From a virus (lineage: Duplodnaviria; Caudoviricetes), in the IMG/VR virus record IMGVR_UViG_3300015245_000043, positions 1 to 52,167 of that record: a stretch of 52,167 nt of DNA; one strand, written 5' to 3'. Made by a program: the position numbers and the translations under genes. The number at the start of each line of letters is the position of its first letter. Positions within the stretch are counted from its first letter, which is position 1. The notes below the pieces were generated by a model. The model worked only from the letters and a program-made list of their open reading frames with translations. It had not been told where the DNA came from and searched no databases. This document shows, in pieces, positions 12,279 to 49,748 of this stretch.

Positions 12279-12775
12279 CACAGGCAGACACCCCGAAGCC
12301 GCAAGGCATCGATCTCTACGCCCACCCCAACGGGCAGATCATCATCCGCGTTCCCAAGGGCGACGGCACGCAATGGAGTGTTCACGACCTTGGCACGACC
12401 AACCTGGAGACGGCGCGCAAGGGACTTCGCCGCTACCTCTCCAAGAACAAGATCACTGGTATCGACGCCGAGAAGGCGCTGGTGAACAGCCGCTACGGCC
12501 AGCTAGAGGACAACGGCGTCCCGGTCGCGCGGCAGATCAGGGAGAAGCGCATCGCCAGCGGCGAGTACAAGGCTCACAAGGGCAACGGCCGGGCGCTGGT
12601 GCCATACATCGAGGAGAACGCCGCCAAGGCCCGCGCGGCGCTCGCCCGGCAGCGCGAGCGGTCGAAGCGCATGGAGAGAGCCGGCCCGATGATCGCCGCC
12701 CTGGCGGCCTCTATGGAAGCCGCCGCGATCAACCTGCGCGAGCTACAGTCGATCATCACAGGAGACGACGAATGA
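12275..12775 (+). CDS. Hypothetical protein with N-terminus resembling an integrase arm-binding domain
   Basis: LGTTNLETARKGL resembles TGTKVLAEAQAF in the downstream integrase; ATGA-coupled on both sides. Confidence 0.65.
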   Translation: MTQADTPKPQGIDLYAHPNGQIIIRVPKGDGTQWSVHDLGTTNLETARKGLRRYLSKNKITGIDAEKALVNSRYGQLEDNGVPVARQIREKRIASGEYKAHKGNGRALVPYIEENAAKARAALARQRERSKRMERAGPMIAALAASMEAAAINLRELQSIITGDDE

Positions 12776-14061
12776 AACACCAGCGGGCAGGCCGCCCCTC
12801 AACCGGCCCGATCCTGCACAAGCGCGGCGAAGGAAACTACGTGCTGCGCGGGACCAAGAACGGTCAGGACTACCAGGTCAGCACTGGCACCAAGGTGCTG
12901 GCCGAAGCCCAAGCCTTCGAGGACCGTTTCAAAGCGGAGAAGCGTCACCTGGCGGCGCGCGGCGACAAGCTGACGCACGCCGCCGGCTACCTGCAATGGC
13001 GCGAGGAGATCGGCGTGAAGAAAGCCGACGCCCTCGCCAAGATCGACGGCGCCATGTGGCGTCTCGGCATCTACCAGCCGCCCGACGAGCCGGCGGCGCT
13101 GTTGCCGAAGGCCAGTCTAGGCCCGCGCCTGATCGCCGAGATGGCGCACGACGAGGAAGCGATGGACACCTACTGGAATAATCTCCAGGCCGAACCGTTC
13201 ACTTATATGCGCTTCCGCAAGCCGCGCAAGGCGGCGGCGGTGCAGTCGGACGCTAACATCCTGTACCTACAAAGCCTGGTGCTGACGTACTTGAACTTCC
13301 TCATCCGGCGCAAACGCATCGCCTCCGACCTGGTCCCGGTGATCAATTGCCGGAAGGCGTCGGAGCCGCGCGAGGAGGTCTATACCCATGACGAGATCGA
13401 CGCCATCGTCAGCGCGGCGGCGGCGATGTCGCCGCGACCGGACCTTGGTCCGCCCTGCCGGGAGCATCTGTTTGTCGTCATCGCCTACAAGACGATGGCG
13501 CGCAGCGACCGCATCCTCAATGCCCGATGGGACTTGGTCGATTGGGACAATATGAGCTTCGACTTCACCCGCGTCTACTCGCCGATGGGGCGCGAGCGCA
13601 AGCAGCCCGATCGCCGGCATCTGCGCGGGATCAAGCCGGCGCCGTTCGCCGAACTTGACGAGGAGCTATACGACCTGCTTCGATGGGCTTGGAAGTGGAA
13701 GGGCAGCGACACCGACTACGTCCTCGGCTCGAAGGCCAGCCTGTACAAGAAGCTCCAGGCTGTATTACGCGCCGCTGGTCTGGTCGACGAGGAGGGTGAG
13801 GTCAGAGGTTCCGGCCACACCTTCAAGCACACAGGTTTGACCCATCTGCTCGCCGGCAATCGGCGTCTCGGCATTCCGGCAGTCGATCCCCAAAAAGCAT
13901 CCGACATCTCGAATACCTCGGTCCCGACTATTCAGCGCGTCTACTACAAAGTCATCGGCGGTGATCATGCTGAGATCACCCGCAAGAGCCTATCAATCGG
14001 CCGCCAGCGGCAACCCGATAATGTTGCGTCACTGGCGGCCAAGAGGTCGCGTCGATCGTAG
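12772..14061 (+). CDS. int: Tyrosine recombinase / integrase (divergent)
   Basis: Likely start ATG 12772 after GGAG; catalytic R in TMARSD, HTFKHT in place of HxxRH, Tyr in RVYY. Confidence 0.8.
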   Translation: MKHQRAGRPSTGPILHKRGEGNYVLRGTKNGQDYQVSTGTKVLAEAQAFEDRFKAEKRHLAARGDKLTHAAGYLQWREEIGVKKADALAKIDGAMWRLGIYQPPDEPAALLPKASLGPRLIAEMAHDEEAMDTYWNNLQAEPFTYMRFRKPRKAAAVQSDANILYLQSLVLTYLNFLIRRKRIASDLVPVINCRKASEPREEVYTHDEIDAIVSAAAAMSPRPDLGPPCREHLFVVIAYKTMARSDRILNARWDLVDWDNMSFDFTRVYSPMGRERKQPDRRHLRGIKPAPFAELDEELYDLLRWAWKWKGSDTDYVLGSKASLYKKLQAVLRAAGLVDEEGEVRGSGHTFKHTGLTHLLAGNRRLGIPAVDPQKASDISNTSVPTIQRVYYKVIGGDHAEITRKSLSIGRQRQPDNVASLAAKRSRRS

Positions 14062-38599: not shown

Positions 38600-38964
38600 G
38601 ACGCTACGACCACGAGCCGAAGCCAGGTGCCTACGGCGTCTGCGAGCGCTGCGGCGATCCGGCGACGCACCCCGGCCCGTTTGAGCAGGCGAAGCCCGAA
38701 GATCGTCTCGGCGATGCCCCGGTGCAGGCCGACTACCAGAAAATGATGACCGCCATCATGCAAGGCATCGACGAGCTTCTAAATCCCGACAAGGAGACCA
38801 AGGGCCGCGCGACCGGCATCCTGATCATGATGTTCCCCTACGGCGACCACAGCGGGCGCTGCAATTATATGAGCAACGGCGCCGACCGGCGCGGTGTCGT
38901 GATCCTGATGAAAGAGATGATCGCGCGCTTCGAGGGTCAGCCGGACGTGACGGGACGCGCGTGA
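38596..38964 (+). CDS. Conserved phage hypothetical protein
   Basis: MFPYG..GRCNYMSNGADR motif; GGAG RBS. Confidence 0.7.
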   Translation: MRRYDHEPKPGAYGVCERCGDPATHPGPFEQAKPEDRLGDAPVQADYQKMMTAIMQGIDELLNPDKETKGRATGILIMMFPYGDHSGRCNYMSNGADRRGVVILMKEMIARFEGQPDVTGRA

Positions 38965-41628: not shown

Positions 41629-42257
41629 AGCAGCCGGGCAATAGCAGCGGCCGGATCGCCAACAAGCGAAAGCCGTTCGGCGCGCACGGCATCGATGATG
41701 CCATCGACGAGGGAGCCAGGATCAACCAGCGTCATCCCGGCTCGCTGCGCGCGACGCGGCGGGCGATCGAGAAGCTGTTGAAGAAGCTGCGGCGGCTTCA
41801 AGAGCATTGAGCGCTCGCACGACCAGGGCGGCATTCTCCTCGCTGTAGCAGACGGCAACGCGGTGCCGGCCGTAGATGTTATCCGGTTTTTCGCGATCAC
41901 CGATGTCCCATATTTCCGGCGGCAGCGACTTGAAGCTGACGCCGCCCTCGTGGCGATGACTGTAGTAACGGTCCATGTCGGCCTCCTCACAATCGATCAG
42001 ACGATAAGGCTGTTACTCGCCAGTGTGCAATAGGATTGAAAGCCTGCGTGGAATTTTTCTCGGTCAACCATATAACCAATCAGCACGCGCGTTCGGGGTG
42101 ACCGGGGTGGGCGGGTTGCGAGCGCCGGCCACGACACGGCGCGGCCGGCGCGCAGCGCGCTGCCTGCGCGCCCCTGCCCGCCAAGGAGGAGGCAGCGCCG
42201 CCCCTCCCTCACTGTGACAGTGCGGCGCTGGATTGCGTTCCTAGTGGGATCAACGGG

Positions 42258-42797
42258 TTAGCTCAGCGGATCGGGCGCTAGTGTCCGCTCCCATGCCTCT
42301 AGTCTGGCCTGACCGACGGCGGCAAGGCGCTCTAGCTCGCTCCTCGACATCTCTGCTAGTGCCTTGCCGGGTTGCGGCGCGCCAGGCGCGAACGCTCCCG
42401 CTTCTGGTGTCCCGGTGAGGTAGTAGCCGGCAAGCTCAGCAGCAAACCGCGTCGCCTGCACCAATTCGCGGAGCTTAGCATCGGGCCGCGCCATTTCCTC
42501 ACGAATGCGGAACAGCCCGAAGGGAACAAGCTGCGCCGCAGCGTAGGCGCGCTGTAGCTCGATGACGGCGGCAGCGAAGATCGGTTCCCGCAGCCATCGC
42601 CTGACGGTCTCGACATCGAGCGCCAGGCGCCGCGCGATCTGCGAAGCCCACAACCCATGATAGACCATCAGTTCAACCGCCCCTAGCTGTGCGTCCGTCA
42701 GGCGGTCGAGCGCTCGCAAGTCGCCAGCACCAGGCCCAACCCCGCGCCGGTTCGCCGCAGCCACTCGCCGCAGCGCCAGCCCTGTGTGATCCGTCAT
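42258..42797 (-). CDS. Putative terminase small subunit (HTH)
   Basis: LTDAQ..IARRL..ETVRRWLREP HTH and C-terminal LAEMSRSELE; GGAGGAGG RBS. Confidence 0.6.
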   Translation of the reverse strand: MTDHTGLALRRVAAANRRGVGPGAGDLRALDRLTDAQLGAVELMVYHGLWASQIARRLALDVETVRRWLREPIFAAAVIELQRAYAAAQLVPFGLFRIREEMARPDAKLRELVQATRFAAELAGYYLTGTPEAGAFAPGAPQPGKALAEMSRSELERLAAVGQARLEAWERTLAPDPLS

Positions 42798-43068
42798 CGC
42801 CGGTCCCTCCTCCGCACTGGCTTACTGCCGGCCGCAGGTCGACTGCAAGCGTTCTCGTCTGTTCTAGGGGTGTGACACTTCGGAGCAAAACTAGTTCCCC
42901 TATGAGAGCGCTATATACTCCGCCGCCGCCGCCAAGCCAGCATCAGGTCAGCACCAGATCAGACACAGATAGTAGCCCTACACGGGATTGGTTTAGCAAA
43001 CACTGTCACACCCCTTTTCGAGGTTTTCTGCCGTTTTCTTGCTTCCACACTACTGAGTAAATCCGTTG

Positions 43069-43098
43069 TTGATTTCTTATTACTCACTCGTGTAAGGT
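43069..43098 (+). promoter_or_regulatory. Putative sigma70-type early promoter
   Basis: TTGATT-18-TAAGGT in an AT-rich gap upstream of the early gene block. Confidence 0.5.
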
Positions 43099-43152
43099 GT
43101 CGGTTGCCCGTCGACACGGCGGGCGACACTTAACCGACAGGAGATTGCGACC

Positions 43153-43320
43153 ATGTCCAAGAAGGATTTCCAGCTAATCGCCGAGACGCTGCGCGCTCGC
43201 GGCGCTCAGCACCCCATCGCCGTCGCGACCATCGCTCGCGACTTCGCCGACGCTCTCAGGGCGACTAACAGCCGCTTTGACCGCGCCCGCTTCCTTGCTG
43301 CCTGCGGCGTGTCGGAGTAG
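43153..43320 (+). CDS. Conserved small early phage protein, 55 aa (absent from the ORF track)
   Basis: MSKKDFQLIAETL...FADALRATNSRFDRARFLAACG; AGGAG RBS. Confidence 0.8.
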   Translation: MSKKDFQLIAETLRARGAQHPIAVATIARDFADALRATNSRFDRARFLAACGVSE

Positions 43321-43325
43321 GGCCG

Positions 43326-43460
43326 ATGAACTACGCCGCTCAGCTACTCGTGGCCGTCGCCTTGACCTTCATCGCGACCGCCTGCATCAGCGCTCCCGCT
43401 GCCATCGTGCAGACCGTGACCGCTGCCATTGAGGAGGTCGCACCCCATGCGTCACGGTAA
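43326..43460 (+). CDS. Small hydrophobic protein, 44 aa
   Basis: MNYAAQLLVAVALTFIATAC; fills the gap between neighbours. Confidence 0.45.
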   Translation: MNYAAQLLVAVALTFIATACISAPAAIVQTVTAAIEEVAPHASR

Positions 43461-43713
43461 CGCCCTGATGATCTCCGACGGCGCCAGCAATCCTGCTGGC
43501 GTCGCGCGGGCGCTGGTCGACGCGATCGACGAATGCAGGAAGGAGACACCTTACCGCGATCCGCGCGGCGATCCTGCCGTGATGCTGATCACGCACCAGC
43601 TAGCGTTCCTGCTCAGCCTGCCAACCTGCGAACGGCTCGACGATTGGGATACCTGGCGCAAGCTCTGCCGGGCGCATGTCGACGCCGCAACGGCCGGGAG
43701 GGTTGCAGCATGA
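43447..43713 (+). CDS. Hypothetical early protein
   Basis: GAGGAGG RBS; GASNPAGVA..DPAV.LI..QLAFL. Confidence 0.7.
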   Translation: MRHGNALMISDGASNPAGVARALVDAIDECRKETPYRDPRGDPAVMLITHQLAFLLSLPTCERLDDWDTWRKLCRAHVDAATAGRVAA

Positions 43714-43976
43714 CGACACCAGACGAGTATTGGCGCCGGCCCTATCGGGCGCGCGTCGAGACTTCGCACTTTAGCGGCACCTTCACTTTCGACAACGAAG
43801 CCGACGCCGTCGACTACCTGCACCAGCAATTCGCCCGCGTGCGCCGGATCATTCGCAACGGCGAGTACGGGACATCCTGGGTTAACTTCGACTGCTACCG
43901 CTCCTACATCGAAGGCCCGGCCGGGCGCGTCGCCGCTCGCTACGTGCTGTTCGTCGACAAGCTCGAAAGCCATTGA
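43710..43976 (+). CDS. Hypothetical early protein
   Basis: GGAGGG RBS; ATGA-coupled. Confidence 0.65.
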   Translation: MTTPDEYWRRPYRARVETSHFSGTFTFDNEADAVDYLHQQFARVRRIIRNGEYGTSWVNFDCYRSYIEGPAGRVAARYVLFVDKLESH

Positions 43977-43977
43977 A

Positions 43978-44043
43978 GGTCGAAACGGGGTGTTAGCTCT
44001 GCTAACATCCTGTCGCGGCGTGACGCGCCGCCTGATGATGACC
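43978..44043 (+). ncRNA. Type II hammerhead ribozyme 1 (predicted cleavage after GUC, 44014)
   Basis: GGTC-GAAAC-[GGGGTGTTAGC tct GCTAACATCCT]-GTC-[GCGGCG tgacg CGCCGC]-CTGATGA-t-GACC: complete catalytic core and three stems. Confidence 0.88.
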
Positions 44044-44064
44044 ACACCAAGGAGATTGCGACCA

Positions 44065-44418
44065 ATGGCAACGACACGTACTGACCGCCGGACCTATGCC
44101 GGCACTGACTTTCGCGGCTGGTTCCGCCGCAAGCTCAAAGACAGCGCGGGAGACATCGCCCGGCATGGCGCCGACGCGGGCTATCCTCACATCACCTACA
44201 CCAGCGACACCGTGAAAATCTTCGATCGCTTCGGCGCCGAGATTTGGACGATGGCAGTCGAGGACGCGGAAAGCATGGGATGCAAGAACGTCGCCGAGAT
44301 GATCGCCGGCTTCGGCCGCGCCGACATGCTCGCGGACTTCGACCAATTCAAGAACCTGATGGTGTGGTACGCCTGCGAGAAGGTCGCACACGAGATGGAG
44401 GACGGCGACAATGCCTGA
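44065..44418 (+). CDS. Early protein, possibly Ocr-like
   Basis: DIARHGADAGYPHITYTSDT...FKNLMVWYACE; acidic C-terminus; AGGAG RBS. Confidence 0.7.
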   Translation: MATTRTDRRTYAGTDFRGWFRRKLKDSAGDIARHGADAGYPHITYTSDTVKIFDRFGAEIWTMAVEDAESMGCKNVAEMIAGFGRADMLADFDQFKNLMVWYACEKVAHEMEDGDNA

Positions 44419-44839
44419 ATTCATTCTCGACACTGGCAACGAAGCGGGAGCGGCGGCGTTCGCCGCTCTCGACGAATTCACGCGCGGCTATGTGACCTGC
44501 ATGTTCTTTACTTCGACAGGATCGGGCGACGATGACGATCTAGAGCATGCGACACTGGCAGAGCTAGCGCCGGAGACCTGGACACGGATCGAGACCGATT
44601 GCGCGGCGTTCCAGTTCATCGCGCCACACATGCTGACGATGGCATGCGAGCGCGACGGCTACAACGCCGGTCGCGCTGGTCATGACTTCTGGCTGACGCG
44701 CAACGGACACGGCGCCGGCTTTTGGGATCGTGACGAGCTAGAGGCGAGCGACCTGGGCGACAAACTCTCGACCATCGCCCGCCGCTTCGGCTCCTGCGAC
44801 CTGTATCGCGGCGATGATAACAACCTGTACCTGGCATAG
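44411..44839 (+). CDS. Conserved acidic early phage protein
   Basis: AGHDFWLTRNGHGAGFWDR motif; GGAGG RBS. Confidence 0.8.
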   Translation: MPEFILDTGNEAGAAAFAALDEFTRGYVTCMFFTSTGSGDDDDLEHATLAELAPETWTRIETDCAAFQFIAPHMLTMACERDGYNAGRAGHDFWLTRNGHGAGFWDRDELEASDLGDKLSTIARRFGSCDLYRGDDNNLYLA

Positions 44840-44851
44840 GAGATTGCGACC

Positions 44852-45313
44852 ATGACTGACGTTCAACAATACACGCACTACGACGCGCCGACGCGGGCGC
44901 AGACCGTGACGATACAATGGGAGCGCGTCGAGGCGCGCGACGATAGCGGCGACACCCCGGAGGAGCGTGACGAAGGCTTCTGGCCGTCCCTCGACAAGGA
45001 CAAGGCTGGCTATGTCGGGGAGGAGAATGCGGCCCGCTTCGATGAACTTTGCGAGGCGGCCGACGCGCGCTTCAAGGGTTGGCGCGATGGCGACTGGTAC
45101 TTTATCGGCGTCGCCGCGCGGGCGCATATCAGCATCCCCATCGGCAGCGGATCGTTCCGCACCATCACTATCGATAGCGGCGGCTTGTGGGGGATCGAGA
45201 GCGACGCAGGCGACTACCTCGACGAGGTATTCGAGGAGGAGAAGGCCAGCCTGCTCGCTGAGCTTGCCACGCTTGGCAAGTGGGCGGCTGAGCAGAAAGG
45301 AGAAGTGACGTGA
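44852..45313 (+). CDS. Conserved acidic early phage protein
   Basis: W.DGDWYFIGV..GLWGIESD motif; AGGAG RBS. Confidence 0.8.
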   Translation: MTDVQQYTHYDAPTRAQTVTIQWERVEARDDSGDTPEERDEGFWPSLDKDKAGYVGEENAARFDELCEAADARFKGWRDGDWYFIGVAARAHISIPIGSGSFRTITIDSGGLWGIESDAGDYLDEVFEEEKASLLAELATLGKWAAEQKGEVT

Positions 45314-45564
45314 ATAAGGAGCGACGCGAGCGCCTGCGGAAGGCGATGGCTGCGATCAACGAAGCGCTGGCGGGACAGATCGAGGAGGTCACCGCCGTCG
45401 CCGACGAGGAGCAGGAGGCATTCGACGGCATGCCCGAAGGTCTACAGGCCGGCGAGAAGGGTCAGAAGATGGAGGAGGTCGCGACGCAGCTACGCGACGC
45501 TGCGGAGGCTCTAGAGCAGGCCCGCGACGATCTTGACACGGCGGTCACGGAGGCATGCGAATGA
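45310..45564 (+). CDS. Conserved acidic helical phage protein
   Basis: MNKERR..EEQEAFDGMPEGLQAGEKG motif. Confidence 0.8.
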   Translation: MNKERRERLRKAMAAINEALAGQIEEVTAVADEEQEAFDGMPEGLQAGEKGQKMEEVATQLRDAAEALEQARDDLDTAVTEACE

Positions 45565-45674
45565 GCGGCCACTTCAACGGCATGCGGAAGATCGACCGCC
45601 CGCTCTACACCTGGGCGCGCGTGATCGCCGTCGCCCTCGGCTTCCTTCTGATCTACTGGCTGACGAGCAGATAG
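45561..45674 (+). CDS. Small single-pass membrane protein, 37 aa (absent from the ORF track)
   Basis: MSGHFNGMRKIDRPLYTWARVIAVALGFLLIYWLTSR; GGAGG RBS, ATGA-coupled. Confidence 0.6.
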   Translation: MSGHFNGMRKIDRPLYTWARVIAVALGFLLIYWLTSR

Positions 45675-45732
45675 GTCGAAACGCGCGCCAGGAGGTCGCG
45701 CGTAGCACCGTGATGCGGTGCCTGACGAGACC
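45674..45732 (+). ncRNA. Type II hammerhead ribozyme 2 (predicted cleavage after GUA, 45704)
   Basis: GGTC-GAAAC-[GCGCG..CGCGC]-GTA-[GCACCG tgatg CGGTGC]-CTGACGA-GACC: complete core and three stems. Confidence 0.88.
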
Positions 45733-45768
45733 GGCGAGCGAGAGCGAGCCAGACCAGGGAGACCGACG

Positions 45769-46179
45769 ATGGTAGTGCAGCGACGCGATTGGAAGGACAT
45801 CCTAACGGATCGTCGACGCCATCAGAAGCCAACGGAGCCGACGGTCATGATCCCGCGCTGCCGCTGGTGCAAGCGGAAGCTAGAGCGGGCGACGGTCTAC
45901 ATCCACATCGCGCCGGAGTGGCAGGCGACGGACACGGTCGCGACGGTTCGCTACATGGAGCGGATCAAGGCTGGCGAGGTCGTCAGCTTCGATCGCGGCT
46001 ACTACCCTGGTCAATCGATCCATACGCCAGCGAGCGAGCGCCCGATTGTCGGGGTCAGAGTATGGGACGGCAAGAGCTACAGAGGGAAGCCGGCGCGCCT
46101 GCCGATATTCTGCAAGCCGGCCTGCGGCGTCGAATTCGCGCTCGACGCGCACCAGCATGGACATAGAAGGAGAAGCTAG
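45769..46179 (+). CDS. Zinc-finger hypothetical protein
   Basis: CRWC...FCKPAC; GGGAG RBS. Confidence 0.65.
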   Translation: MVVQRRDWKDILTDRRRHQKPTEPTVMIPRCRWCKRKLERATVYIHIAPEWQATDTVATVRYMERIKAGEVVSFDRGYYPGQSIHTPASERPIVGVRVWDGKSYRGKPARLPIFCKPACGVEFALDAHQHGHRRRS

Positions 46180-46440
46180 ATGCCGAAGCTAAGGAACGTG
46201 ACGGCTCACGAAATCGCTGAGGCCGTCAATGCCGCCGAAGATGTCAGCGCGATCTGCACTGGCATCGTCGGGCGCGTGCAGCAAGGCTATTGCGACGAGG
46301 TCGACGAGCCGGTCACGGTCGCGTCGTCGCTGCTATCGGCCAGCCGGTCGCTGGCTGACCTGGCGCACGCGATGCTGATCAAGGGACGGCTGCAAGAGCA
46401 GAAGGCGACGCTAGAGCGCACGCTGCGGAGCAGATCATGA
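46180..46440 (+). CDS. Hypothetical protein
   Basis: AGGAG RBS, 86 aa. Confidence 0.6.
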   Translation: MPKLRNVTAHEIAEAVNAAEDVSAICTGIVGRVQQGYCDEVDEPVTVASSLLSASRSLADLAHAMLIKGRLQEQKATLERTLRSRS

Positions 46441-46622
46441 AATGGTCCTGGTCCTGCGGCCACGAAGCGAGCGAGTGCTGCGCCGAATGCCATCGCCTGC
46501 TTTCGGTCAAATCGACGACGATGGTCGAGATCATCGACGACCTGATCGACGACCTGCGGCGACGCGGGCTTAACGAGAAGGCCGACGCCATCGGTCGCAA
46601 GCTGAATGAGGCACTACGATGA
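46437..46622 (+). CDS. Hypothetical Cys-rich protein
   Basis: ATGA-coupled; CGH..CCAEC. Confidence 0.55.
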   Translation: MKWSWSCGHEASECCAECHRLLSVKSTTMVEIIDDLIDDLRRRGLNEKADAIGRKLNEALR

Positions 46623-46852
46623 AACCCGCCGAATTCACGACGCTAGGGACCGCCGCCTTCGGCGAGCGCTGGCGTACCGCCCTGGCCGGCGCCATCGGCA
46701 AGTCGCGCGAGATGGTCTATCAGTACGAGCGCGGCAAGTACCCGATCCCCGACGATGTCGCCGTCAATATCCGCAAGGTCTGCGCCAAGCGGATCGAGAA
46801 GCGGATCGCGGACCTACAGGCGACGCTCCTGCGCTGCGAGCTTGCGGCCTGA
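46619..46852 (+). CDS. HTH DNA-binding protein
   Basis: FGERWRTALAGAIGKSREMVYQYERGKYPIP. Confidence 0.75.
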   Translation: MKPAEFTTLGTAAFGERWRTALAGAIGKSREMVYQYERGKYPIPDDVAVNIRKVCAKRIEKRIADLQATLLRCELAA

Positions 46853-46873
46853 ATTCCCTACCTGCTGCATAGA

Positions 46874-49111
46874 CTAATCGTCGTCGTCGCCTGCCTCGCC
46901 GGCCGGGTCGAGATAGGTGACGCCGATGCCTCTCTCGACCTTGTCGTCGCGCAGCCATAGGCCGCGCACGCGATGCCGGTACTTCCCTGTCCTGTAGGTC
47001 TGGAACCCCATCTGCTCCATCACGGCGCGGAAGCGGCCGATGCTATGGATGTAGCGGGTGTCGCCGAAGTGGATCGCGTGATAGGAGCGGAAGGCGCTGT
47101 AGAAGTCGTTGACCGTGTCGCCGTTGGCGGCGCCCTCCTTCGGAGCGACGCGCGTGCAGGCGGCTTCGATGAATTCGATCTCCGGCGCGTTGCTGCTGAT
47201 CCAGATCGCCTGCGCGTCGACGCCGGCTCTCGACGGCAGGATGTAGCTGCGGCTGATGACGCCGGAAAGTGCTGAAAGCATGCGGTTTAAGATCCCGCTC
47301 ATCTCTTTTCGATCTGACCAGATCGACGGCCAGGGCGAGTGCTGGCGCTCCTCTCGCTTGTATTGCCGGCGGAATTCCATCACCAGCGCGCGGTCGCGCG
47401 TTCCCTCGCTGAGGTCGGCGGTCGACGGCCAGGAGTTACAGAGGATCACAGGGAAGGTGCAGCAATTGAAGTTCACGTCGTTGACGTACTTCTTGGCGGC
47501 GTTGATCTGCTTGGCCTCGCTGATCATCTTCAAGGGACCGTCGGGTAGCACCGCCTGATAGTTCATGTCGTCGTCGAGAAAGAGCAGCTTGCCCTCTAGC
47601 TCCGAGAGCGCGAAGCGGTCGGTTTTCAGGTTCTCGATCCGGCCGGCTTGCACCGTGCCGGGCGGTAGCATCGCGCGCACGGTCATCAGCAGCCGCGTCT
47701 TGCCGTTGTGGCCGCTGCCCTTGCAGATCAGGTAGCAGCGCGCGTCGCGCCAGGGTGTCAGCGCGTAGCCCATCGCTTCGAGCAGCATGCGCTCGTTGTC
47801 GGCCTGGTCGTAGACGTGCAGCATGCGGCCCGGTCCCTGCCGGACGCTGGTGTCGCCGTTGACGAGCCGCTGCGCGGTCGCGGCGTAGTCGTCATCGCCA
47901 GCGCGCACGATGTAGTAGGTCTCGCTGAGGACATCGGCGAAGGCGGCGTCGAAACGCGGGCAGACGCTTCGCGGATCGTAGTCGACATCGCAGCAGTAGG
48001 TGAGCAGGTCATCGGGATCGTGCGGCTTGAAGATGATGCCGCCATCGGCGGTCGAGATCAGGATCGTGCCGTTGGCGAGATTGAGGATCGGGCGCAGCGC
48101 CATCTCCGGCCGCAGCAGCGGTGAGAGCCGGTCGTGTACTTCGGCTTCGAGCAAGCCCATCGCTTGCGTGACGGCGGTGTTCACGTTCTGCGGCCTGGCG
48201 TCGCCGATGCTCATCATCAGCGCCGGTTGATCGAGCGCGACGTGCTGCATGTCCTTCTTGATCAGGTTGGCGTCGATCCGGTCCCAGGCTTTGCCGCCGT
48301 AGCGCCACCAGGCGGCGTTGTGGAAGGCGAGCTTGCCGAGACCGTAGAGACCGCGCACGGCATCGGCCAGGCGGCGCGGGACATCGTAGGTCCGGTCCAT
48401 GTCGCGCCGTAGCTGCTCGAATGTCATCTGCTTGCGGAGGGTTTTCAGGCTGATCCCGGTCGCGCCCTTGATCCGGTGCAGGAGATCGTCGACCTGGACA
48501 GGCGTCAGGCTGGCGTCGACGATGGCGGTGATCGCCGTCGCGCAGTCGTCGACCGTGCTGTCGGCCGCCAGCAGATCGACGGCGCCGCCGATCTCGACGT
48601 AGCCTGGCGCCGTCGGCGCGACTAGCTCGACCGGCGGCGGGTTGACTTCTACGTCAACCTCGTCGTCGTGATCGAAGTCGAGGTCGTAGATCAGCGTGCA
48701 GCGCCCGCCGCTCTCCTCCCAGGCTTGCTGCGCCAGCCAGCGAAAGCCGACGTGACAGTGAGCCGGATCGATCCCCTGCCATAGCCTGTCGGCGGTCTCG
48801 ACCGCCTTCGGGTCGCTGCTCCATTGGCCGCACCAATCGAGCCAGGCGGCATAACCCTCGCCGCTCTTGGCGGTCGCGGCAACGATGGCATGGCCCATCG
48901 TCACCCAATACTCGCGCGAGCGCGGATCGTTCGGCCGGATCGGCAGGTAGCGCAGCGCCTCGACGACGGCGTCAATCGAGGAAGCGAGGAGATCGCCGGA
49001 CGGCGGCGCGTGACCGTTCGCCTTGGTCGGCTTGCGCGGGCGCTGTAGCGGGACGTAGTCGATCGCGCGGAGCGCGGCGGCGATCCTACCAGTGATCGGC
49101 GAGTTGCTCAT
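46874..49111 (-). CDS. PriCT-2 / D5_N / SF3 helicase part of a P4-family primase
   Basis: REYWVTMGHA (PriCT-2), LNLANG..PHDPDDLLT (D5_N), Walker A GSGHNGKT, Walker B LFLDDD. Confidence 0.9.
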   Translation of the reverse strand: MSNSPITGRIAAALRAIDYVPLQRPRKPTKANGHAPPSGDLLASSIDAVVEALRYLPIRPNDPRSREYWVTMGHAIVAATAKSGEGYAAWLDWCGQWSSDPKAVETADRLWQGIDPAHCHVGFRWLAQQAWEESGGRCTLIYDLDFDHDDEVDVEVNPPPVELVAPTAPGYVEIGGAVDLLAADSTVDDCATAITAIVDASLTPVQVDDLLHRIKGATGISLKTLRKQMTFEQLRRDMDRTYDVPRRLADAVRGLYGLGKLAFHNAAWWRYGGKAWDRIDANLIKKDMQHVALDQPALMMSIGDARPQNVNTAVTQAMGLLEAEVHDRLSPLLRPEMALRPILNLANGTILISTADGGIIFKPHDPDDLLTYCCDVDYDPRSVCPRFDAAFADVLSETYYIVRAGDDDYAATAQRLVNGDTSVRQGPGRMLHVYDQADNERMLLEAMGYALTPWRDARCYLICKGSGHNGKTRLLMTVRAMLPPGTVQAGRIENLKTDRFALSELEGKLLFLDDDMNYQAVLPDGPLKMISEAKQINAAKKYVNDVNFNCCTFPVILCNSWPSTADLSEGTRDRALVMEFRRQYKREERQHSPWPSIWSDRKEMSGILNRMLSALSGVISRSYILPSRAGVDAQAIWISSNAPEIEFIEAACTRVAPKEGAANGDTVNDFYSAFRSYHAIHFGDTRYIHSIGRFRAVMEQMGFQTYRTGKYRHRVRGLWLRDDKVERGIGVTYLDPAGEAGDDDD

Positions 49112-49748
49112 CGGTGACCGTCCTAACGTGTTCTGCGAGCAGGTCCGTGAGGGTCGGTCGACCGTTGACCGCATGCCAGGTGTAGGGCTTGCCGGTTTTG
49201 GGGTGAATGCCCTCGATGACGAATTGCTGACCGACGCCTAGAAGCTCGACCGCTGAGGTCTGTCCGGTGAAGGCGTTGGCGAATGCCTGGCGCTCTTTCT
49301 TGCGCGCGGTCGCCGGCCGGAACGGGACCAGGAAGCCAGGCGGGCGCCCGATCCTGATGCCGCAGCCGGCGTCGACGATGAACGGCAGCAGCGAGTTATA
49401 CACAGCCTGCGCGAACGTCTCGTCGAGCGTGTCGACATCGATGGCGTGGATATGTCGAGAATTCAAGCCGATGCCGTATGGCTCCGACGACATGCTGTTA
49501 TGCCACTTGACAAGTGTTTCACGTGAAACATCGGCGTGCGTCCATCCCTTGAAGCCGATCCAGCCGTCGGCCAGGCGCAGGCCCGGTATCTTCCCTAGCT
49601 TGTCGGCGGTGATGTTCGGCCCGGCGTCGACGGAGATCGGCGCGCCCGGCGGGATGATGGGAAGCAGGTCCGAAGTGTGACCGAGATCGGCCCATTTCAT
49701 GAACCGATTGACGGCAGGATCGAATTCAGCTACGGGAATGTAGGCCAT
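49086..49748 (-). CDS. Prim-Pol (bifunctional primase/polymerase) N-terminal domain, separate ORF
   Basis: GKIPG..W.GF.GW, AIDVD, VELLG.GQQFV..GIHPKTGKPYTW. Confidence 0.85.
   Translation of the reverse strand: MAYIPVAEFDPAVNRFMKWADLGHTSDLLPIIPPGAPISVDAGPNITADKLGKIPGLRLADGWIGFKGWTHADVSRETLVKWHNSMSSEPYGIGLNSRHIHAIDVDTLDETFAQAVYNSLLPFIVDAGCGIRIGRPPGFLVPFRPATARKKERQAFANAFTGQTSAVELLGVGQQFVIEGIHPKTGKPYTWHAVNGRPTLTDLLAEHVRTVTDEQLADHW

What the first reader, a model, noticed from the sequence alone, without database searches (positions are those of the whole stretch)
44015..45704. Paired hammerheads could excise, and possibly circularise, a five-gene early mRNA
Seen: two same-strand hammerheads with different stems I and III but identical stem II (GGUC/GACC) bracket 1690 nt holding five complete ORFs with their RBSs, mostly acidic. 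Established: hammerhead cleavage leaves 5'-OH and 2',3'-cyclic phosphate ends, which can be joined by the reverse reaction or RtcB. Inference: the released fragment carries stem I-CUGAUGA-GACC at its 5' end and GGUC-GAAAC-stem III-GUA at its 3' end, so its ends could assemble a hybrid hammerhead and ligate into a circular mRNA. Even if linear, this would be host-independent processing analogous to RNase III cutting of T7 early RNA, stabilising a putative anti-defence cassette. This is the best candidate for an undescribed system in the window.
Basis: partly seen in the sequence, partly recalled or inferred. Interest (0 to 1): 0.92.

Follow-up and report, generated by a model that had tools for sequence, protein, structure and literature searches.

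The report
Two hammerhead ribozymes bracketing phage genes
Two self-cutting RNA motifs sit between genes of a phage operon and should chop its long transcript into shorter messages, an arrangement already described for prophages in 2011, and nothing found here supports the idea that the released piece becomes a circle.

Summary
Two same-strand type II hammerheads (43978-44043, cut after 44014; 45674-45732, cut after 45704) bracket 1690 nt holding five ORFs. A covariance model built only from other viral contigs scores them at 44.1 and 52.2 bits; the next best hit in the window scores 10 bits. None of 200 shuffled windows gave two motifs.

Excision of a linear five-gene RNA is the straightforward prediction. 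Circularisation has no specific support:
- GGUC/GACC is the consensus stem II of a compact, pseudoknot-free subclass (13 of 17 viral relatives).
- 11 of 15 whole viral records carry a single copy.
- Neighbouring ribozymes in arrays are no more cross-compatible than random pairs.
- The fragment ends share no extra complementarity.
- The phage encodes no RtcB or RNA ligase.

Perreault et al. 2011 described ribozyme-flanked gene blocks in prophages and looked for circles without finding any. So this is not an undescribed system.

Most likely function: host-independent cutting of the polycistronic transcript, leaving each new end closed by a hairpin. The anti-defence label is unsupported.

A side result: Rfam's curated threshold misses this compact subclass.

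The parts
43978..44043 (+). Hammerhead 1. Type II, compact class. Stem II GGUC/GACC, stem III of 13 bp, stem-loop I of 17 nt, core CUGAUGA with an extra U at 44039. Cleavage predicted after C44014.
   Evidence: R1 gives 44.1 bits, E 2.1e-12. The isolated RNA folds as a hammerhead at minimum free energy, -35.6 kcal/mol, z -4.6.
45674..45732 (+). Hammerhead 2. Type II, compact class. Stem II GGUC/GACC, stem III of 7 bp (9 pairs in the predicted fold), stem-loop I of 17 nt, core CUGACGA. Cleavage predicted after A45704. Its first G is the last base of the stop codon of the preceding ORF.
   Evidence: R1 gives 52.2 bits, E 3.9e-15. Rfam Hammerhead_II gives 22.5 bits, below the cut-off of 37. The isolated RNA folds as a hammerhead at minimum free energy.
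44015..45704 (+). Predicted 1690-nt cleavage product. It starts with the stem I hairpin of HH1 (5'-OH) and ends with the stem III hairpin of HH2 (2',3'-cyclic phosphate).
   Evidence: Follows from the two cleavage sites. The end chemistry is established hammerhead chemistry and was not tested here.
44065..44418 (+). ORF 1, 117 aa, DUF7222, pI 5.1. AAGGAG lies 10 nt upstream of the start.
   Evidence: Pfam PF23864, E 6.9e-11..
44411..44839 (+). ORF 2, 142 aa, phrog_1915 (unknown function), pI 4.3.
   Evidence: PHROG match, E 1.9e-27. Its structural neighbours are all viral hypothetical proteins.
44852..45313 (+). ORF 3, 153 aa, no family match, pI 4.3.
45310..45564 (+). ORF 4, 84 aa, phrog_4068 (unknown function), pI 4.3.
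   Evidence: PHROG match, E 1.7e-21.
45555..45674 (+). ORF 5, 39 aa, basic and hydrophobic. The more likely start is the ATG at 45561, which overlaps the stop of ORF 4 as ATGA and lies 7 nt after GGAGG.
   Evidence: The choice of start is my reading of the sequence.
43153..43976 (+). Upstream segment of the same + strand gene cluster: small ORFs 43153-43320, 43326-43460, 43429-43713 and 43710-43976. After the HH1 cut it would end in the stem III hairpin.
   Evidence: That the cluster is one transcription unit is inferred.
45769..46852 (+). Downstream segment: ORFs 45769-46179, 46180-46440, 46437-46622 and 46619-46852 (the last HTH-like). After the HH2 cut it would begin with the stem I hairpin.
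   Evidence: HTH_3, E 3.9e-4.

Best explanation
Both elements are functional type II hammerhead ribozymes of a compact, pseudoknot-free subclass. They lie in the intercistronic gaps of a + strand cluster of about 13 small genes (43153-46852) in a 52-kb integrase-encoding phage.

As the polycistronic RNA is made, each ribozyme cuts itself, at 44014|44015 and at 45704|45705. This converts one transcript into three linear mRNAs of 4, 5 and 4 ORFs.

In the type II topology stems III and I are closed hairpins on either side of the scissile bond. Each upstream product therefore ends in a stem III hairpin with a 2',3'-cyclic phosphate. Each downstream product begins with a 5'-OH stem I hairpin, followed about 20-35 nt later by a ribosome-binding site.

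The likely consequence is that the decay and translation of the segments become uncoupled without any host nuclease.

Shown here: the motifs, their statistical support, and their intercistronic placement. Inferred: that they cut in vivo, that the cluster is one transcript, and that the effect is on mRNA stability or expression.
For: - Both cores are complete (C3-A9, G12-A14, A15.1-U16.1, H17) with three helices.
- R1, built from 17 ribozymes of other viral contigs, gives 52.2 and 44.1 bits against 10 bits for the next hit. None of 200 shuffles gave two motifs.
- Both match the subclass at positions that no search pattern fixed. In 96 distinct genome-contig examples, A precedes GGUC in 95, and loop I reads U at position 1 in 96, A at position 3 in 83 and G at position 5 in 91. 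HH1 has A-GGUC with loop UGACG; HH2 has A-GGUC with loop UGAUG.
- Placement is intercistronic. HH1 starts 1 nt after the stop at 43976 and ends 21 nt before the ATG at 44065. HH2 overlaps the stop at 45672-74 and ends 36 nt before the ATG at 45769.
- The same placement recurs elsewhere (my own ORF and Shine-Dalgarno heuristic). A same-strand stop lies within -2 to +6 nt in 14 of 19 compact examples. A Shine-Dalgarno sequence plus start lies 12-36 nt downstream in 14 of 19.
- Arrays are always co-directional: 0 of 98 genome loci have ribozymes on both strands.
- Literature: clustered hammerheads flank genes or short gene blocks in prophages, and three arrays cleaved in vitro and one in E. coli (PMC3088659 passages). 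Three type II hammerheads near phage-like genes cleave in vivo in D. vulgaris (PMC8782182 abstract and passages).
Against: - There are no transcript data for this phage.
- Both motifs are below Rfam's gathering score, and HH1 is not listed even at E<=10.
- HH1 carries an extra U between A9 and stem II. It is the only one of 19 compact examples in the viral set to do so, although 12 of 13 insertions across all 57 viral-set hits are also U.
- Neither has the loop I/tail pseudoknot that most type II hammerheads use; the longest complement is 2 nt. The stabilising tertiary contact is therefore unknown.
- Nearest-neighbour folding in a 121-nt context gives the 4-bp stem II a probability of only 0.02 (HH1) and 0.04 (HH2), with competing helices 2.3-2.6 kcal/mol better. 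The 17 relatives range from 0 to 0.92 with a median of 0.105, so this does not set the window apart.
- Relatives of ORF 1 lack any hammerhead: L124, L125 and 30 of 31 metagenome loci. The one exception is a 99%-identical copy of the window.
- The direction of the effect on stability depends on the host. Recalled, not from a call: RNase E prefers a 5'-monophosphate, whereas RNase J1 degrades the 5'-OH glmS product.
Confidence: 0.75

Rival explanations
1. The excised 1690-nt RNA is circularised into a circular five-gene mRNA. This would happen either by a hybrid hammerhead assembled from the 5' half of HH1 and the 3' half of HH2 running in reverse, or by a host RtcB.
For: - The two end pieces alone cofold into a hammerhead-shaped complex: -34.6 kcal/mol against -27.8 for the separate pieces.
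- The core of such a hybrid would be complete.
- Hammerhead ligation and RtcB joining of these end types are established chemistry.
- Paired ribozymes do produce circles in retrozymes (PMC4918200, listing and abstract only).
Against: - The matching stem II is the subclass consensus, not a pair-specific adaptation (13 of 17).
- 11 of 15 whole viral records have one copy.
- Adjacent pairs in arrays are not enriched for compatibility. Of 17 pairs, 9 are Watson-Crick, 5 wobble and 3 mismatched, against 57% Watson-Crick for random pairs.
- Only 4 bp would hold the ends together. In the minimum-free-energy fold of the whole fragment both strands pair elsewhere or not at all.
- The ends have no extra complementarity: 17 of 25 internal windows pair with the 5' end at least as well.
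- The phage encodes no RtcB or RNA ligase.
- Perreault et al. state that they could not detect circular or spliced products from such arrays; data not shown in the paper.
Confidence: 0.04
2. One or both motifs are weak, conditional or decaying ribozymes, so the transcript is cut only partly or only under some conditions. HH1 is the more doubtful of the two.
For: - HH1 has an extra U after A9, and a competing helix is predicted around it.
- No pseudoknot is present.
- The predicted probability of stem II in context is low.
- Perreault et al. report slow core variants in phages and suggest regulated cleavage.
Against: - All other core positions are canonical.
- Both match subclass-specific conserved positions.
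- HH1 is unchanged in a 99%-identical second contig that differs at 13 positions and 8 gaps over 2085 aligned nt. This is weak evidence.
- A U insertion at this site recurs in 12 other natural examples.
Confidence: 0.15
3. HH1 is part of a switch. An 11-bp long-range helix (43969-43974 plus 43978-43982 with 44058-44062 plus 44064-44069) competes with stem II and hides the start codon of ORF 1. Cleavage and translation of ORF 1 would then be coupled.
For: This helix is in the minimum-free-energy fold of 43950-44070, -48.7 kcal/mol against -46.1 with stem II enforced.
Against: - The GACC used is part of a 13-mer ribosome-binding-site motif that is repeated five times in the genome, so the pairing may be incidental.
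- No independent relatives exist to test covariation.
- The minimum-free-energy structure has a frequency of 0.08 in the ensemble.
Confidence: 0.05
4. The motifs are chance matches with no function.
For: They fall below the Rfam threshold.
Against: - None of 200 shuffles gave two hits.
- R1 E-values are 1e-12 to 1e-15.
- Both lie in intergenic gaps on the coding strand.
Confidence: 0.01

Closest known systems
Clustered type II hammerheads flanking genes in prophages (Perreault et al. 2011, PMC3088659; examples from A. tumefaciens, A. caulinodans and C. scindens)
   Same: - Same-strand hammerheads flank single genes or short gene blocks of variable identity in phage operons.
- The core is canonical.
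- The proposed role is processing of long phage transcripts.
- Circular products were considered in that paper too.
   Different: - These two lack the loop I/tail pseudoknot that the paper reports for most type II examples.
- They score below Rfam's Hammerhead_II cut-off.
- The bracketed block (1.69 kb, five ORFs) is longer than the 228-1204 nt spacings I saw in other arrays.
- None of the five proteins matches ArdA at E<=0.1.
Type II hammerheads near phage-like genes in Desulfovibrio vulgaris (cyPhyRNA-seq, PMC8782182)
   Same: Type II topology in a phage-like gene context. In vivo cleavage was shown for all three predicted ribozymes.
   Different: Those lie at three separate loci, not as a bracketing pair. 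I did not compare their sequences with the compact subclass.
Retrozymes and viroid-like circular RNAs with paired hammerheads
   Same: Two same-strand hammerheads release an RNA with a 5'-OH and a 2',3'-cyclic phosphate.
   Different: - Those RNAs are mostly non-coding and highly self-paired, and a host ligase joins their ends.
- Their ribozymes are type I or III and sit in repeats.
- Here the RNA is a coding mRNA with no end complementarity, and the two ribozymes are not repeats of each other.
RNase III processing of phage T7 early RNA (recalled, not from a call)
   Same: A polycistronic phage transcript is cut between genes, leaving hairpin-closed ends. This is a functional analogy only.
   Different: In T7 a host protein nuclease makes the cut. 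Here the RNA cuts itself, and the end chemistry differs.

Membership tests
Hammerhead ribozyme | Conserved core: C3 U4 G5 A6 N7 G8 A9, G12 A13 A14, A15.1-U16.1, H17 | tested here: met
   Both have it. HH1 reads CUGAUGA ... GAAA ... GUC. HH2 reads CUGACGA ... GAAA ... GUA. HH1 has one extra U after A9.
Hammerhead ribozyme | Three helices around the core, with paired positions next to it (10.1-11.1, 1.1-2.1, 15.1-16.1) | tested here: met
   Stem lengths III/I/II are 13/7/4 bp in HH1 and 7/7/4 bp in HH2. In isolation the minimum-free-energy fold is the hammerhead fold.
Hammerhead ribozyme | Tertiary contact between stems I and II. For type II this is usually a pseudoknot of at least 4 bp between loop I and the 3' tail. 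| tested here: not met
   The longest loop I/tail complement is 2 nt in both, against mostly 4-7 nt in the class with a 22-24-nt stem-loop I. The conserved flanking A and the U.A.G pattern in loop I hint at another contact, which remains untested.
Hammerhead ribozyme | Self-cleavage at H17 | not testable with these tools
Rfam Hammerhead_II (RF02276) | Score at or above the gathering cut-off of 37 bits | tested here: not met
   HH2 scores 22.5 bits and HH1 is not listed. The model also misses all 22 compact hammerheads that R1 finds in 20 genome loci.
Compact type II hammerhead subclass (defined here by model R1) | 17-nt stem-loop I, 4-bp stem II (consensus GGUC/GACC), and no pseudoknot | tested here: met
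   52.2 and 44.1 bits with a model that holds no window sequence. The features are listed.
Ribozyme-bounded circular RNA (retrozyme or viroid-like) | Ends brought together by extensive self-pairing, and circular junctions observed | tested here: not met
   There is no end complementarity above the internal background. Junction reads could not be tested.

The most novel reading that the evidence does not exclude
The 1690-nt five-gene RNA released by the two ribozymes is joined end to end, by a transient hybrid hammerhead through the shared GGUC/GACC stem II or by a host RtcB. That would give a circular, translatable bacterial mRNA. Because stem II is invariant across the compact subclass, the same would hold for every array of these ribozymes.
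Probability: 0.04. Interest if true: 0.85.

Novelty: new member of a known kind. Interest (0 to 1): 0.3.

Why it matters
The biological role of hammerheads in phages is still an open question (reviews PMC6155905 and PMC6765202, passages). This locus adds one clean example but no new principle.

Two points may be useful to others.

1. The type II topology leaves a hairpin on both new ends. This gives a simple rationale for its use between cistrons. It is my inference.

2. A compact, pseudoknot-free subclass is widespread. It is invisible to Rfam's curated cut-off: 0 of 22 were detected. Phage and prophage annotation therefore probably under-counts these ribozymes.

Tried and rejected
Searches that found nothing useful:
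- Rfam at gathering threshold on the whole window: nothing.
- A weak Rfam hit at 38856-38911 (10.6 bits) lies inside a coding region and lacks the motif. Rejected.
- Relatives of ORF 2 (6 viral loci, 32-51% identity): no hammerhead by scanner, R1 or Rfam.
- ORF 3 and the ORF at 45769: no relatives in viral contigs.
- Relatives of ORF 1 (2 viral and 31 metagenome loci): only L155 has a hammerhead, and it is a 99%-identical copy of window 42071-44154.
- Rfam on L124 and L125: no ribozyme.
- Sigma-70 promoter scan of 42000-47200: 0 sites. Terminator-like sites are not above the shuffle expectation. Uninformative.

Protein function:
- Pfam, PHROGs, PDB sequence search and the protein atlas give only unknown-function families.
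- I did not run structure prediction or the large homologue searches, because the gene functions do not decide the finding.

Other points:
- No RtcB or RNA ligase gene in the phage. The host is unknown.
- The end-to-end duplex test used very long, loose RNAduplex alignments. It is only a rough control.
- The pair counts on alignment A1 come from sequences that my scanner selected for pairing. The 98.8% paired figure is therefore by construction; only the variety of pair types is informative.
- Many of the 34 adjacent pairs in genome contigs, with spacing of about 350-390 nt, come from related Gastranaerophilales assemblies and are not independent.
- The look-up of sequencing runs: none was listed and no RNA holder was listed.
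- Supplements of PMC3088659 (Figures S1-S3 and S5, Dataset S1) were not opened because supplements are closed. They may already contain the compact subclass, so I do not claim it is unpublished.
Full report
**What the window is.** The window is a complete IMG/VR virus record of 52,167 bases, with CheckV completeness of 100. It encodes a DNA polymerase, exonuclease, helicase, integrase-like protein, large terminase and primase. The finding lies in a + strand cluster of small ORFs (43153-46852). This cluster sits between a divergent - strand gene (42258-42797) and a convergent - strand primase gene (46874-49174).

**The observation.** Reading 43800-45900 shows two type II hammerheads on the + strand, at the stated places.
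- HH1 spans 43978-44043. In order it reads: GGUC, GAA, a 13-bp stem III hairpin, C17 at 44014, a 17-nt stem-loop I, CUGAUGA, one extra U, GACC.
- HH2 spans 45674-45732. In order it reads: GGUC, GAA, a stem III of 7 bp (9 pairs in the predicted fold), A17 at 45704, a 17-nt stem-loop I, CUGACGA, GACC.
- The predicted cuts are 1690 nt apart.

Five ORFs lie between them. Four are acidic and one is a basic 39-aa hydrophobic peptide.

The two motifs are well above chance.
- A permissive structural scanner finds only these two on both strands.
- 200 dinucleotide shuffles of the window gave a mean of 0.025 hits, and none gave two.
- Rfam's curated threshold reports nothing. In E-value mode only HH2 appears, at 22.5 bits against a cut-off of 37.

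**Independent model.** I searched IMG/VR with a pattern that fixed only GAAAC, CUGANGA and the two inner pairs of stem II.
- 38 of the 115 hold at least one structurally valid type II hammerhead.
- 10 hold two or more, always on one strand. One locus, L030, holds seven.

Two classes are visible.
- One has a 22-24-nt stem-loop I whose loop pairs with the 3' tail, with Watson-Crick runs mostly 4-7 nt long. This is the pseudoknot that Perreault et al. describe.
- The other is compact. It has a 17-nt stem-loop I, a 4-bp stem II and no pseudoknot (runs of 2-3 nt).

Both window ribozymes are compact. I aligned the 17 compact relatives, with no window sequence (A1), and built model R1 from them. Over the whole window, with filters off, R1 gives:
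- HH2: 52.2 bits, E 3.9e-15
- HH1: 44.1 bits, E 2.1e-12
- next best hit: 10 bits, E 0.53

**Is the shared stem II special?** No.
- Among the 17 compact relatives, 13 have exactly GGUC/GACC. The outer two pairs were free to vary in that search.
They come from many bacterial phyla and one Methanobacteriaceae assembly.
- 98 of those 120 loci hold at least one valid hammerhead: 67 hold one, 29 hold two, one holds three and one holds four. No locus has ribozymes on both strands.

Positions that the pattern left free are strikingly conserved. Across 96 distinct sequences:
- A precedes GGUC in 95.
- A follows GACC in 80.
- Loop I has U at position 1 in 96, A at position 3 in 83 and G at position 5 in 91.

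HH1 and HH2 fit these rules. Identical stem II is therefore a subclass constant.

**Do relatives keep pairs?** Mostly not.
- R1 searches of the whole records behind 15 viral loci found one copy in 11 and two or three copies in 4. Five of the six records that are at least 90% complete have a single copy.
- Outside the window there are 17 adjacent same-strand pairs in the viral set. For these I asked whether the 3' strand of stem II in the upstream ribozyme pairs with the 5' strand in the downstream one. It is fully Watson-Crick compatible in 9, pairs with wobbles in 5 and is mismatched in 3. Random pairs from the same pool of 55 are Watson-Crick compatible 57% of the time. Neighbours are not selected to match.
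- Relatives of the genes themselves lack the ribozymes. None was found in 6 loci with ORF 2 relatives, in 2 viral loci with ORF 1 relatives, or in 30 of 31 metagenome loci with ORF 1 relatives. The one positive, L155, is a 99%-identical copy of the window.
- In L124, where ORF 1 is 77% identical, the same gene boundary carries a terminator-like hairpin with a T run and a promoter-like TTGACT. This single example fits the idea that the ribozyme marks a transcript boundary.

**Circularisation.** On paper the two ends of the fragment can form a hammerhead-shaped complex. The end pieces alone cofold at -34.6 kcal/mol, against -27.8 when separate. Several results argue against it:
- Only 4 bp would hold the ends together.
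- In the minimum-free-energy fold of the full 1690-nt RNA both strands pair elsewhere or not at all.
- The 5' and 3' 150-nt ends pair no better than the 5' end pairs with internal windows; 17 of 25 internal windows are at least as good.
- The phage has no RtcB or RNA ligase gene.
- Perreault et al. raise exactly this possibility for such arrays and state that they could not detect spliced or circular products (passages read).

I put this reading at about 4%.

**Most likely mechanism.** The ribozymes fill the intercistronic gaps.
- HH1 begins 1 nt after a stop codon and ends 21 nt before the next ATG. HH2 overlaps a stop codon and ends 36 nt before the next ATG.
- The same placement holds elsewhere. 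A same-strand stop lies within -2 to +6 nt in 14 of 19 compact examples, and within -1 to +10 nt in 26 of 38 others. A Shine-Dalgarno sequence plus start lies 12-36 nt downstream in 14 of 19 compact examples, and 16-44 nt downstream in 33 of 38 others (my own heuristic).

In the type II topology the cut lies between two closed hairpins. Every product therefore keeps a terminal hairpin: stem III with a 2',3'-cyclic phosphate at the new 3' end, and stem I with a 5'-OH at the new 5' end. I infer that the ribozymes split the operon RNA into three hairpin-ended mRNAs whose decay and translation are uncoupled, without need of a host nuclease. This matches the role suggested in the literature. It is also consistent with the in vivo cleavage of type II hammerheads in D. 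vulgaris.

**Caveats.**
- No RNA data exist for this phage.
- HH1 has an extra U after A9. This is unique among the 19 compact examples of the viral set, although 12 of 13 insertions at this site across all 57 hits of the viral-set scan are U.
- Secondary-structure prediction in context gives stem II a probability of 0.02-0.04. The relatives span 0-0.92 with a median of 0.105, and such models ignore tertiary contacts.
- Around HH1 a competing 11-bp helix that covers the ORF 1 start codon is predicted. It uses part of a 13-mer ribosome-binding-site motif that occurs five times exactly in the genome, against 0.18 expected. It may therefore be incidental.

**The other claims.**
- 'Anti-defence cassette' has no support. 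The matches are DUF7222, phrog_1915 and phrog_4068, with nothing for the other two ORFs. There is no PDB sequence match and no ArdA match at E<=0.1.
- 'Early' is plausible from the neighbouring HTH and replication genes but untested.

[quoted passage not shown] This is a new member of a known kind.

The modest extra value is the compact subclass.
- It is widespread.
- It has conserved unpaired positions that suggest a non-pseudoknot tertiary contact.
- Rfam's gathering threshold misses it entirely: 0 of the 22 that R1 finds in 20 genome loci.

Noticed in passing
window 43978-44043 and 45674-45732; loci L013-L122 and L157-L276: There is a compact type II hammerhead subclass: 17-nt stem-loop I, 4-bp stem II that is almost always GGUC/GACC, and no pseudoknot. 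Its unpaired positions are strongly conserved. A lies 5' of stem II in 95 of 96 distinct sequences, and loop I has U at position 1 in 96, A at position 3 in 83 and G at position 5 in 91. Rfam's gathering threshold detects 0 of the 22 that model R1 finds in 20 genome loci.
   Followed up: partly
window 37849, 43140, 44051, 44839 (+), 51041 (-), 49783 (-, 1 mismatch): The 13-mer GGAGATTGCGACC occurs five times exactly, against 0.18 expected. At least three copies lie directly before start codons (43153, 44065, 44852). It looks like a reused unit of ribosome-binding site plus spacer.
   Followed up: partly
window 43969-43982 with 44058-44069: A long-range helix of 6+5 bp is predicted to enclose HH1. 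It would compete with stem II and cover the ATG of ORF 1 at 44065. There are no relatives in which to test covariation.
   Followed up: partly
L124 3870-3960: In a viral contig whose ORF 1 homologue is 77% identical, the boundary upstream of that gene carries a terminator-like hairpin with a T run and a TTGACT promoter-like site instead of a hammerhead.
   Followed up: no
L030 (viral), L185 (Polyangiaceae MAG), G008 (406-kb viral record): Some records hold long co-directional arrays. L030 has seven type II hammerheads within about 3.4 kb. L185 has four compact ones within about 1.7 kb. G008, a 406-kb phage record, has three within 2.8 kb.
   Followed up: no
window 45555-45674: The fifth ORF more likely starts at the ATG at 45561. 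That start overlaps the stop of ORF 4 as ATGA and lies 7 nt after GGAGG, which would give a 37-aa hydrophobic peptide.
   Followed up: no
L155 1-2078: A 2078-b metagenome contig is 99% identical to window 42071-44154 (13 mismatches, 8 gap openings) and carries an unchanged HH1. The phage or a near strain was therefore sampled twice.
   Followed up: partly
window 12373-14061 (+): An integrase-like ORF (phrog_1, E 1.2e-15) suggests that the phage is temperate.
   Followed up: no
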